Source of the DNA: a virus
Virus record (IMG/VR): IMGVR_UViG_3300031760_000017
Length of the DNA: 64,000 nucleotides
Strand: one strand, 5' to 3'
Made by a program: the position numbers and the translations under genes. This document shows positions 3,102 to 3,180 of this stretch, piece by piece. Positions within the stretch are counted from its first letter, which is position 1. Every line of letters begins with the position of its first letter. The notes under the pieces are model-generated. The model was not told where the DNA came from. It searched no databases and worked only from the letters and a program-made list of their open reading frames with translations.

Positions 3102-3180
3102 AATGGCTCGGCACGCAGACACTCGTATCTCAGAAACGAAAAGCTGGTTTGGATTTTTTATTTTGCATTTCTTGGGCAGG
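3102..3180 (+). repeat. Conserved intergenic element of about 78 nt, copy A. Copy B is at 60203-60280. It lies just upstream of a -10-like box and could be an sRNA or a regulatory site
   Basis: The two copies are about 80% identical: AATGGCTCGGCRCGCARACACYCGTAYCYCAG..TTTGGATTTTTTATTTGCATTT. Confidence 0.5.

What the first reader, a model, noticed from the sequence alone, without database searches (positions are those of the whole stretch)
3102..3180. Conserved 78-nt intergenic element present twice, at 3102-3180 and 60203-60280
Two intergenic regions 57 kb apart share AATGGCTCGGCRCGCARACACYCGTAYCYCAG...TTTGGATTTTTTATTTGCATTT at about 80% identity. Both lie just upstream of a -10 box preceding a gene start. 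The element is far more GC-rich than its surroundings. It may be a small RNA or a binding site for a phage regulator marking a class of promoters.
Basis: seen in the sequence. Interest (0 to 1): 0.5.

Follow-up and report, generated by a model that had tools for sequence, protein, structure and literature searches.

The report
Twice-repeated conserved phage RNA-like element
A roughly 105-base non-coding element with a GC-rich core occurs exactly twice in this stop-codon-recoded phage and is conserved in related phages, one copy always just behind a Ro60-like RNA-binding protein gene, so it is more likely an RNA signal or small RNA than a promoter mark, though its function is unproven.

Summary
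Two same-strand copies (element A 3081-3185, element B 60182-60285) share a 23-nt GC-rich box (65-70% GC against 30% for the window) and a T-rich island. No third copy exists in the window. The window is a TAG-recoded, AT-rich siphophage of about 140 kb. Copy A lies 91 nt behind a gene whose predicted fold matches Ro60 proteins best, at the end of a tRNA cluster. Copy B starts at the stop codon of a RecJ-like gene and ends in a strong terminator hairpin. About 30 sequence variants were recovered from related phages, always one per locus and on the gene strand. The box (77-82% pairwise identity) is more conserved than its flanks (about 52%). The flanks can pair around the box, with suggestive covariation, but the stem is no more stable than shuffled sequence. 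No Rfam family matches. A small ORF, a promoter class, a 5S rRNA relationship and a host-derived attachment site were tested and rejected. Best reading (confidence 0.35) is a plus-strand RNA stem-loop presenting a conserved loop, possibly the Y-RNA-like partner of the Ro60-like protein. A conditional terminator or a DNA-level site remain live rivals. No transcript data were available.

The parts
396..1395 (+). Cluster of four tRNA genes (Gln, Gly, Arg, Cys) upstream of the Ro60-like gene
   Evidence: ARAGORN and Rfam. Relatives carry larger tRNA arrays plus tmRNA and RNase P RNA in the same position.
1464..3014 (+). Ro60-like RNA-binding protein gene (DUF2828 + DUF7788/vWA), with no in-frame TAG
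3026..3059 (+). Intrinsic terminator of the Ro60-like gene (10-bp stem plus T-run). Its 5' arm shares the 10-mer GGCACGCAGA with box A.
3081..3185 (+). Element copy A, full covariance-model match
   Evidence: 87.4 bits, E = 5e-16, filters off.
3094..3099 (+). Copy A, 5' arm of flank helix P0 (GUUUUU)
   Evidence: RNAfold. Covariation test of P0.
3105..3127 (+). Copy A GC-rich box GGCTCGGCACGCAGACACTCGTA
3132..3137 (+). Copy A, 3' arm of P0 (AGAAAC)
3138..3159 (+). Copy A second conserved island (A-run, GGTTTGGA, T-run)
   Evidence: 79% mean pairwise identity across the family, against about 52% for the flanks.
3262..3747 (+). Downstream gene, first of a TAG-containing late-looking block. Its codon 6 is TAG in relatives.
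58423..60204 (+). RecJ-like DHH exonuclease gene with 8 in-frame TAG codons. Its TAA stop abuts copy B.
   Evidence: Pfam DHH, DHHA1 and RecJ_OB.
60182..60285 (+). Element copy B, full covariance-model match
   Evidence: 90.0 bits, E = 1.5e-16.
60198..60202 (+). Copy B, 5' arm of P0 (CUUUU), inside the end of the RecJ-like coding region
60206..60228 (+). Copy B GC-rich box GGCTCGGCGCGCAAACACCCGTA
60231..60280 (+). Copy B 17-bp hairpin followed by a U-run, terminator-like. Its base (GGAAG, 60233-60237) is also the 3' arm of P0. The conserved TTTGGATTTTTTT lies in its loop.
   Evidence: -29.6 kcal/mol, z = -4.9. Compensatory pairs are visible in L092 and L128.
60278..60306 (+). Sigma-70-like promoter (TTGATT, 17 nt, TATAAT with TG) of the next gene
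60337..60789 (+). T4 gp30.3-like gene downstream of copy B, with no TAG
   Evidence: Pfam PF08010, E = 2e-56.

Best explanation
The element is a functional plus-strand RNA module. A variable stem is made by the sequences on either side of the GC box (P0 plus P1). This stem presents a highly conserved GC-rich loop of about 16-23 nt (CUCGGCGCGCAGACAC). An A-tract, a conserved UUUGGA/UUUAGA motif and a U-tract hairpin follow. The module sits at the 3' boundary of two transcription units, behind the Ro60-like gene and behind the RecJ-like gene. It is made either as a short stable RNA or as the 3' end of those messages. The conserved loop is read by a protein. The most likely reader is the phage's own Ro60-like protein, which would make the element a Y-RNA-like partner with two paralogues per genome. 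Shown here: the conservation pattern, strand, copy number, genomic context and the Ro60-like fold of the neighbouring gene product. Inferred: transcription, the stem-loop, and the link to the Ro60-like protein.
For: - **Copy number and strand:** there are exactly two copies per genome. Across 99 sources there is one copy per locus, always on the strand of the flanking genes.
- **Conservation pattern:** about 30 variants were recovered. The box has 77-82% mean pairwise identity and the A/T island 79%, against 51-53% for flanks and tail. This points to selection on two islands.
- **Flank helix P0:** on a structure-blind MAFFT alignment, 69.1% of cells pair against 58.7 +/- 2.1 in shuffles, and the covariation score is 0.341 against 0.215. 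Neither is reached in 0 of 500 shuffles, and all slid controls are lower. The result holds with 26 sequences. P1 is weaker. The minimum-free-energy fold pairs flank with flank in about half of the variants.
- **Copy B hairpin:** it is very stable. It keeps pairing through A-U to G-C and C-G to G-C changes in L092 and L128.
- **Not coding:** the ATG is lost in L001, L006, L009 and L092, there are in-frame stops, and 1-nt indels separate the groups.
- **Neighbouring gene:** its best fold matches are Ro60 proteins. Mycobacteriophage members of the family are annotated 'Ro-like RNA binding protein'. The gene closes a cluster of RNA genes: tRNAs here, plus tmRNA and RNase P RNA in relatives. The same order, tRNA array then gene, holds in Bacillus phage Tsamsa.
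- **Precedent:** Y RNAs lie within 4 kb of Ro60 on the same strand in bacteria and 22 phages (PMC4201824). Phage phiLo Ro60 binds two adjacent Y-like RNAs (PMC12135203).
Against: - The stem-loop is no more stable than shuffled sequence, with z mostly between -1 and +2. The 91-nt region around copy A has z = +1.4.
- RNAalifold finds no consensus structure in 13 close sequences on either strand.
- The shuffle test can be passed by related sequences without any structure.
- G-U cells barely outnumber A-C cells in P0 (23 versus 18), so the strand signal is weak.
- New variants L203 and L204 do not fit P0 in the same register.
- The Y-RNA motif GNCGAAN0-1G (vertebrate GGUCCGA) is absent from both window copies, and there is no tRNA-like domain.
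- No Rfam family matches.
- No sigma-70-like promoter lies upstream of either box, and copy A lies behind a strong terminator.
- Copy B is 57 kb from the Ro60-like gene.
- Close relatives lack copy A altogether (L013, L056).
- There are no expression data.
Confidence: 0.35

Rival explanations
1. The element is a conditional terminator (attenuator) at the border between temporal gene blocks. The 3' arm of P0 overlaps the 5' arm of the following U-tract hairpin. A factor bound to the GC loop would then decide between termination and read-through into the next block.
For: - In copy B, GGAAG (60233-60237) belongs both to P0 and to the base of the terminator hairpin.
- In L009-type copies, AUCUGAAAUC can pair either with the upstream flank or with the downstream UUUCUGAU (sequences).
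- Both copies sit where TAG content changes. The Ro60-like gene has 0 TAG and the following genes have 1, 11 and 15. The RecJ-like gene has 8 and the following genes have 0.
- In relative L031 the same slot holds a c-di-GMP-I-GGC riboswitch, so this slot can host cis-regulatory RNA.
Against: - The A-type AU-rich hairpin shows no covariation (68.0% paired against 68.6% in shuffles) and is thermodynamically weak.
- In copy B only the lowest 5 of 17 pairs would be displaced.
- Copy A lies behind a strong terminator with no recognisable promoter in between, so little transcription may reach it.
- Promoter-like sequences for the downstream genes lie behind the element.
Confidence: 0.25
2. The element is a DNA-level site: a binding site for a phage protein, or a recombination or module-junction sequence. 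It would act as double-stranded DNA, not as RNA.
For: - The box is conserved as primary sequence, with no internal covarying hairpin.
- In L075 and L082 the box is cut after ...CAGACACC and followed by unrelated, GC-richer DNA with genes on the other strand. This is a module breakpoint inside the box.
- Copy A is present or absent as a clean unit between the terminator and the next conserved block (L013, L056).
- A tyrosine recombinase gene lies at 7690-8706.
Against: - The box is not palindromic and has no flanking repeat typical of recombinase sites.
- Its orientation always follows transcription.
- The flanks covary as if pairing, which a duplex protein site would not need.
- There is no match in 185,579 reference genomes, so it is not a host-derived attachment core.
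- The recombinase gene is 4.5 kb away.
Confidence: 0.15
3. The element is a relic without function of its own, left by duplicated intergenic DNA or decayed terminator hairpins and kept similar by recent duplication or gene conversion.
For: - Box A shares the 10-mer GGCACGCAGA with the 5' arm of the terminator 80 nt upstream. The terminator arm in L043 reads GGCGCGCAGA, identical to the common box.
- L040 has a perfect hairpin at this place.
- Some relatives lack copy A.
Against: - The box is 22 of 23 identical between lineages whose flanks have diverged to about 50-60%.
- Both positions are kept in genomes where A and B have diverged from each other (L043 versus L092).
- Diverged members keep the same architecture.
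Confidence: 0.1
4. The element encodes a small protein of 25-28 aa (MARRANTRTQEAKMHLDFFICIFAF in copy B, overlapping the RecJ-like stop as TAATG).
For: Both window copies begin with ATG and are open for 25-28 codons (read). In relatives of copy B the CAG codon is TAG, which is synonymous if TAG codes for Gln.
Against: - ATG is ACG in L001, L006 and L009, and TAACG in L092 and L128.
- TGG becomes TGA in L001.
- The frame differs between A and B across the conserved TTTGGATTTTTT, through a 1-nt deletion and a 1-nt insertion.
- Another frame carries TAA stops in L009 and L076.
- There is no Shine-Dalgarno sequence.
- CGG/CGC codons are atypical for a 30% GC genome.
Confidence: 0.03

Closest known systems
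Bacterial and phage Y RNAs (YrlA/YrlB, D. radiodurans Yrn1, Thermus phage phiLo Yrl1/Yrl2), partners of Ro60
   Same: The element is a short non-coding sequence on the same strand as a Ro60-type gene and 91 nt behind it. There is more than one copy per genome. A stem may be formed by the two flanks around a larger unpaired region. The locus is tied to tRNA-related genes (PMC4201824, PMC12135203).
   Different: - It has no GNCGAAN0-1G or GGUCCGA motif, no tRNA-like domain and no Rfam match.
- The conserved part is the loop, not the stem.
- The second copy is 57 kb from the Ro60-like gene.
- The protein is of the DUF2828/DUF7788 type, not annotated as TROVE.
- Binding is untested.
Intrinsic terminators and 3'-UTR-derived small RNAs that share the terminator of an mRNA
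   Same: Copy B starts at the stop codon of the RecJ-like gene and ends in a stable hairpin plus U-run. A conserved single-stranded-looking segment precedes the terminator, as in seed regions of 3'-UTR-derived sRNAs (established knowledge of CpxQ/SroC-type RNAs, recalled from memory and not tested).
   Different: The hairpin loop is unusually long (16 nt) and holds a conserved motif. Copy A follows a separate complete terminator and has only a weak AU hairpin. No target or processing site is known.
Phage antitermination RNA sites present twice per genome (lambda nutL/nutR, HK022 putL/putR)
   Same: There are two conserved copies per genome, each about 70-100 nt, acting (if at all) as RNA at borders of temporal transcription units (recalled knowledge, used as a lead only).
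   Different: nut and put sites lie just downstream of early promoters on divergent strands. Here both copies are on one strand, no upstream promoter is evident, and there is no sequence or structure similarity.
Transcription-attenuating riboswitches and protein-dependent antiterminators (pbuE adenine switch, RAT/LicT)
   Same: One arm of the closing stem overlaps the 5' arm of a downstream U-tract hairpin. A related phage has a c-di-GMP-I-GGC riboswitch in the same slot.
   Different: There is no ligand-binding architecture, no covariation in the A-type hairpin and no match to any Rfam riboswitch.

Membership tests
Y RNA (Ro60 partner RNAs) | Encoded near (within about 4 kb of) the Ro60 gene on the same strand | tested here: met
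   Copy A starts 91 nt after the stop of the Ro60-like gene, on the same strand, and holds this position in 20+ related loci. Copy B does not meet the criterion, being 57 kb away.
Y RNA (Ro60 partner RNAs) | The neighbouring protein is a Ro60 orthologue (HEAT-repeat ring plus vWA domain) | tested here: met
Y RNA (Ro60 partner RNAs) | Conserved Ro60-binding motif GNCGAAN0-1G (bacteria) or GGUCCGA (vertebrates) in the 5' strand of the terminal stem | tested here: not met
   Window A has AACGAAAAG and window B has AAGCAAAAA. The position is UCAA, GCAA or UGAA in most variants. Only distant, weakly related members carry GACCGAAAA or GCCGAAAA.
Y RNA (Ro60 partner RNAs) | 80-130 nt RNA in which the 5' and 3' ends pair into a long stem around a large internal loop | tested here: inconclusive
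   A flank-to-flank stem (P0/P1) shows suggestive covariation, but its stability is no better than shuffles. The RNA ends are unknown.
YrlA subfamily | tRNA-like domain (D and T arms) | tested here: not met
   ARAGORN and Rfam find no tRNA-like signal in either copy.
Y RNA (Ro60 partner RNAs) | Physical binding to the Ro60 protein | not testable with these tools
   This needs EMSA or RIP with the product of gene 1464-3014.
Any Rfam 15 family | Covariance-model score at or near the gathering threshold | tested here: not met
   Only tRNAs pass gathering in the window. E-value scans of both copies list only chance-level hits with E > 1. The same holds for diverged members.
Intrinsic (Rho-independent) terminator | Stable GC-containing hairpin directly followed by a U-run | tested here: met
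   Met for copy B only: a 17-bp stem, -29.6 kcal/mol, z = -4.9, followed by UUUUUGAUUUUUUU. In copy A and the L009-type copies there is only an A5/U6 pairing without covariation.
   There are two copies only. The distance to the nearest -10 differs between copies: about 85 nt in A, and behind a terminator in B.
5S rRNA or 5S-like RNA | Match to the 5S model or consistent similarity to 5S loop B/helix III/loop C | tested here: not met
   There is no 5S hit at E <= 10.
Small protein / type I toxin-like ORF | Conserved start codon and reading frame | tested here: not met
   The start codon is lost in L001, L006, L009, L092 and L128, and frame-breaking indels and stops occur.
Phage attachment site core (attP identical to a host sequence) | Identical stretch in a bacterial genome | tested here: not met
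   The pattern GGCTCGGCNCGCANACACNCGTA has 0 matches in 185,579 reference genomes.

The most novel reading that the evidence does not exclude
[quoted passage not shown] One RNA is encoded behind the Ro60-like gene. A second is carried on, or cut from, the 3' end of the RecJ-like nuclease message. The RNA would then couple the Ro60-like ring to a nuclease, as Y RNA couples Rsr to PNPase. Alternatively it would mark boundary transcripts for controlled decay during the switch to TAG-recoded late genes.
Probability: 0.12. Interest if true: 0.75.

Novelty: new variant of a known kind. Interest (0 to 1): 0.5.

Why it matters
Proteins of the DUF2828/Ro60-like type occur in at least 692 deposited phage genomes, infecting Escherichia, Mycobacterium, Listeria, Staphylococcus, Bacillus and other hosts. 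About 8,000 relatives turned up in metagenomic protein clusters. For most of these no RNA partner is known. A conserved non-coding element glued to this gene gives a concrete, cheap hypothesis to test: does the protein bind the GC loop? If so, the family of Ro60-associated RNAs would extend beyond the YrlA type. If the element is instead a regulated terminator, it would mark how these stop-codon-recoded phages separate gene blocks that do and do not need TAG suppression. Either way it is an unannotated, recurrent feature that gene callers using the standard code will miss or mis-call as a small ORF.

Tried and rejected
1. **Small ORF.** Both window copies start with ATG, but start codon and frame are not kept in relatives.
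2. **Known RNA family.** Rfam gathering and E-value scans of both copies and of diverged members found nothing. No YrlA-like RNA was found in the 1.4 kb upstream either. A control on a mycobacteriophage Ro-like locus also found nothing, so this negative result is weak.
3. **5S rRNA-like origin.** This was prompted by local resemblances seen by eye in L060 and in window copies A and B. It was not supported.
4. **Internal hairpin within the GC box.** The pairs are invariant or mismatched, with no covariation.
5. **AU-rich hairpin of A-type copies as a conserved terminator.** No covariation.
6. **RNAalifold consensus on 13 close sequences, both strands.** Essentially none, -0.45 and -1.15 kcal/mol.
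7. **Third copy.** The weak HMM hit at 13094-13150 on the minus strand lies antisense inside a plus-strand ORF. The CM hit at 39380-39449 is a plain terminator.
8. **Host-derived attachment core.** No match in reference genomes.
9. **Complementarity of the box to other window sequences.** The only match is the neighbouring terminator arm, and this is not conserved in relatives.
10. **TTGGTCAAAAAT as a recurrent promoter motif.** It lies downstream of A-type copies but is not enriched in the window, with 184 matches against 212 expected.
11. **Similar DNA in GenBank phages.** No match for the element.
12. **Hammerhead-like CUGAUGA in some relatives.** It is not conserved, and no Rfam ribozyme hit was found.

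Full report
**1. The observation**

The shared degenerate 28-mer occurs exactly twice in the window with up to three mismatches, against none in 100 shuffles. Identity is 74% over the stated coordinates (61 of 82 columns). It is 78% over a wider alignment. Only the first ~25 nt are GC-rich: box 3105-3127 is 65% GC and box 60206-60228 is 70% GC, in a window of 30% GC. A profile HMM and a covariance model scored at every position both find two copies and nothing else credible. The next-best hits are an antisense stretch inside an ORF and an ordinary terminator. The unit that is conserved elsewhere is about 105 nt long, 3081-3185 and 60182-60285.

**2. What kind of genome this is**

With the standard code, open reading frames cover 62% of the window. 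If TAG is read as a sense codon, coverage rises to 89% with hardly more ORFs. Very long genes then appear:
- a 2,888-aa tape-measure-like protein with 71 in-frame TAGs;
- a 1,564-aa tail protein with 26;
- a RecJ-like nuclease with 8.

CAG/TAG exchanges between relatives fit TAG = Gln. Size (a close relative is a 139.8-kb contig), tRNA load, long tape measure and Shine-Dalgarno use resemble the TAG-recoded 'Phassvirus'-like gut siphophages, thought to infect Clostridia (PMC10607447). No close relative is in GenBank phages.

**3. Context of the two copies**

Copy A lies between the terminator of gene 1464-3014 (stem 3026-3049) and a block of TAG-containing, late-looking genes. Evidence on gene 1464-3014:
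- Pfam assigns DUF2828 + DUF7788, and PHROG 850 is 'RNA-binding protein'.
- An AlphaFold model (pLDDT 70) has a single significant Foldseek hit in the PDB, the Ro60 of Thermus phage phiLo.
- The family is in 692 deposited phage genomes. Mycobacteriophage members are annotated 'Ro-like RNA binding protein'.

The gene closes a cluster of RNA genes. There are four tRNAs here. Relatives carry arrays of a dozen tRNAs plus tmRNA and RNase P RNA. The same order, tRNA array then gene, is seen in Bacillus phage Tsamsa.

Copy B starts at the TAA stop of the RecJ-like gene (60202-60204). It contains a 17-bp hairpin with a U-run (60231-60280; -29.6 kcal/mol, z = -4.9). A sigma-70-like promoter follows (60278-60306), then a T4 gp30.3-like gene. 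Both copies therefore sit at the 3' border of a transcription unit. Both also sit where TAG usage changes.

**4. Relatives**

Pattern scans and searches around homologues of the two neighbouring genes recovered the element in related viral and metagenomic contigs.
- A-type copies always lie behind the Ro60-like gene, or behind an extra inserted gene that follows it (L075, L076).
- B-type copies lie in front of the gp30.3-like gene, at the stop of the upstream gene (read by eye in the close relatives).
- The covariance model finds one copy per locus, always on the gene strand.
- A close relative's 139.8-kb contig has two copies.
- Diverged members keep the plan 'CTGCTYGG, a GC-rich 20-30 nt, an A-run, TTTGG/TTTAGA, a T-run'.
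- Some close relatives lack copy A cleanly (L013, L056), yet the L013 genome keeps copy B (L128).
- In L075 and L082 the box is cut after ...CAGACACC and joined to unrelated DNA.
- The box is absent from 185,579 reference genomes.

**5. What is conserved**

Across 24 variants, mean pairwise identity is 77% for the box (82% for its core) and 79% for the A-run/GGTTTRGA/T-run island. It is only 51-53% for both flanks and the tail. The element is not coding. The ATG present in the window copies is ACG or absent in five relatives. Stops and 1-nt indels break every frame. The conserved TTTGGATTTTTT is read in different frames in A and B.

**6. Structure**

Evidence against a structure:
- RNAalifold on 13 close sequences gives no consensus on either strand.
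- A hairpin inside the box has no varying pairs.
- The AU-rich hairpin of A-type copies shows no covariation.
- The stem-loop is not more stable than shuffled sequence, with z mostly between -1 and +2. The region around copy A is less structured than random, z = +1.4.
- Two new variants, L203 and L204, do not fit the common register.

Evidence for a structure:
- The poorly conserved flanks can pair with each other around the box: UCAGA/UYUGA plus GAU/AUC in L009-type copies, GUUUYU/AGAAAY in the window type, CUUUU/GGAAG in copy B.
- On a structure-blind MAFFT alignment this helix (P0) has 69.1% paired cells against 58.7 +/- 2.1 in shuffles. Its covariation score is 0.341 against 0.215. Neither value is reached in 500 shuffles, and every slid control is lower.
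- With 26 sequences the result holds.
- An inner extension (P1, ACGG/YCGU) is only marginal.
- The model-fitted alignment gives the same picture but is biased towards the structure.

The shuffle control can be passed by related sequences without structure. G-U cells barely outnumber A-C cells in P0 (23 versus 18) and do so more clearly in P1 (21 versus 8). I therefore rate the stem as suggestive, not shown. The copy B hairpin is better supported. Between window B, L092 and L128 its top pair changes from A-U to G-C and a middle pair from C-G to G-C (read).

**7. Interpretation**

The pattern is variable flanks that may pair, an invariant GC-rich loop, a second conserved U-rich island, fixed strand, portability to two unrelated gene contexts and no coding potential. 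This fits an RNA-level module best. Two mechanisms fit.

(a) A protein-bound small RNA or 3'-end module. The obvious candidate protein is the Ro60-like product of the adjacent gene. Y RNAs are encoded within 4 kb of Ro60 on the same strand in 254 bacterial species and 22 phages (PMC4201824). Phage phiLo Ro60 binds two adjacent Y-like RNAs (PMC12135203).

(b) A conditional terminator. The 3' arm of P0 overlaps the 5' arm of the following U-tract hairpin in both types. A related phage has a c-di-GMP-I-GGC riboswitch in the same slot (55.2 bits, E = 1e-12).

Against (a):
- Copy B is far from the Ro60-like gene.
- Copy A can be lost.
- No promoter is evident upstream of the box.

Against (b):
- The A-type hairpin is weak and does not covary.
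- Promoter-like sequences for the downstream genes lie behind the element.

A DNA-level role (binding site or recombination junction) is kept alive by the L075/L082 breakpoints and by the lack of thermodynamic signal. A functionless relic is unlikely, given that the box is far more conserved than its flanks.

**8. Comparison with what is known, and novelty**

The element works most like a Y RNA or a terminator-linked sRNA, but it fails the defining sequence features of Y RNAs. I do not file it as a member. It matches no Rfam 15 family. It is best described as a new, clade-restricted non-coding element associated with a phage Ro60-like gene, that is, a new variant of a known kind of arrangement. 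The promoter-class idea does not.

**9. Verdict**

The feature is real, conserved and non-coding, present twice per genome. Its mechanism is unproven. Confidence is 0.35 for the RNA stem-loop / Ro60-partner reading, 0.25 for a conditional terminator, 0.15 for a DNA site, 0.10 for a relic and 0.03 for a small ORF. Interest is 0.5.

Noticed in passing
window 1-64000; for example 18612-27278 (-), 13604-18298 (-), 3779-7672 (+), 58414-60204 (+): TAG is used as a sense codon. ORF coverage rises from 62% to 89% when TAG is read through. A 2,888-aa tape-measure-like gene has 71 in-frame TAGs. TAG-rich and TAG-free genes are interleaved: the RecJ-like gene has 8 while its neighbours have 0. No suppressor tRNA is in the window.
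   Followed up: partly
window 1464-3014; L207 (Bacillus phage Tsamsa) 1-3949: The DUF2828/DUF7788 gene is a Ro60-like protein by fold. It sits directly after tRNA arrays in phages as distant as Tsamsa. Relatives add tmRNA (L018 2425-2705, L040 469-698) and RNase P RNA (L060 1-215) to the same cluster.
   Followed up: partly
L031 5560-5633: A c-di-GMP-I-GGC riboswitch aptamer (55.2 bits, E = 1e-12, just under the gathering score of 59) occupies the slot behind the Ro60-like gene in a related phage, in front of a membrane-protein-like gene.
   Followed up: partly
L075 6778-6796 and L082 about 5740-5760: These copies of the element are truncated inside the GC box (...CAGACACC|TGGGGCAGG) and joined to GC-richer DNA with genes on the opposite strand. 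This is either a module breakpoint or an assembly chimera.
   Followed up: partly
window 3028-3037 versus 3110-3119: The 5' arm of the Ro60-like gene's terminator and box A share the exact 10-mer GGCACGCAGA, so the terminator's 3' arm is complementary to the box. In L043 the terminator arm reads GGCGCGCAGA. The relation is not kept in most relatives.
   Followed up: partly
window 7690-8706 (-): There is a tyrosine recombinase/integrase-like gene with 10 in-frame TAG codons, in a phage otherwise lacking obvious lysogeny signals in the window.
   Followed up: no
window 274-387 (+): Two sub-threshold tRNA-like matches (25.6 and 20.7 bits) lie just upstream of tRNA-Gln. They may be degenerate tRNA genes. 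The 480-nt gap at 468-949 between tRNAs has no annotated feature.
   Followed up: no
L075, L076, L200, L206 (between the Ro60-like gene and the element): In some relatives an extra gene of about 300 aa is inserted between the Ro60-like gene and the A-type element. It begins MNQELQDKIDKLPSVLL... in L076 and contains Cys-rich 'CDCG' repeats. It looks like a mobile endonuclease-type insertion.
   Followed up: no
L198 (Mycobacterium phage Aegeus) 2984-3531: Three very small annotated CDSs (47, 60 and 28 aa) lie directly behind the 'Ro-like RNA binding protein' gene. They could be mis-called non-coding RNA. Rfam found nothing there.
   Followed up: partly
window 60127-60204: A terminator-like hairpin (60136-60155) lies inside the last 25 codons of the RecJ-like gene, just after an in-frame TAG (60127-60129). 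If TAG is not suppressed, translation ends there, right in front of this hairpin.
   Followed up: no
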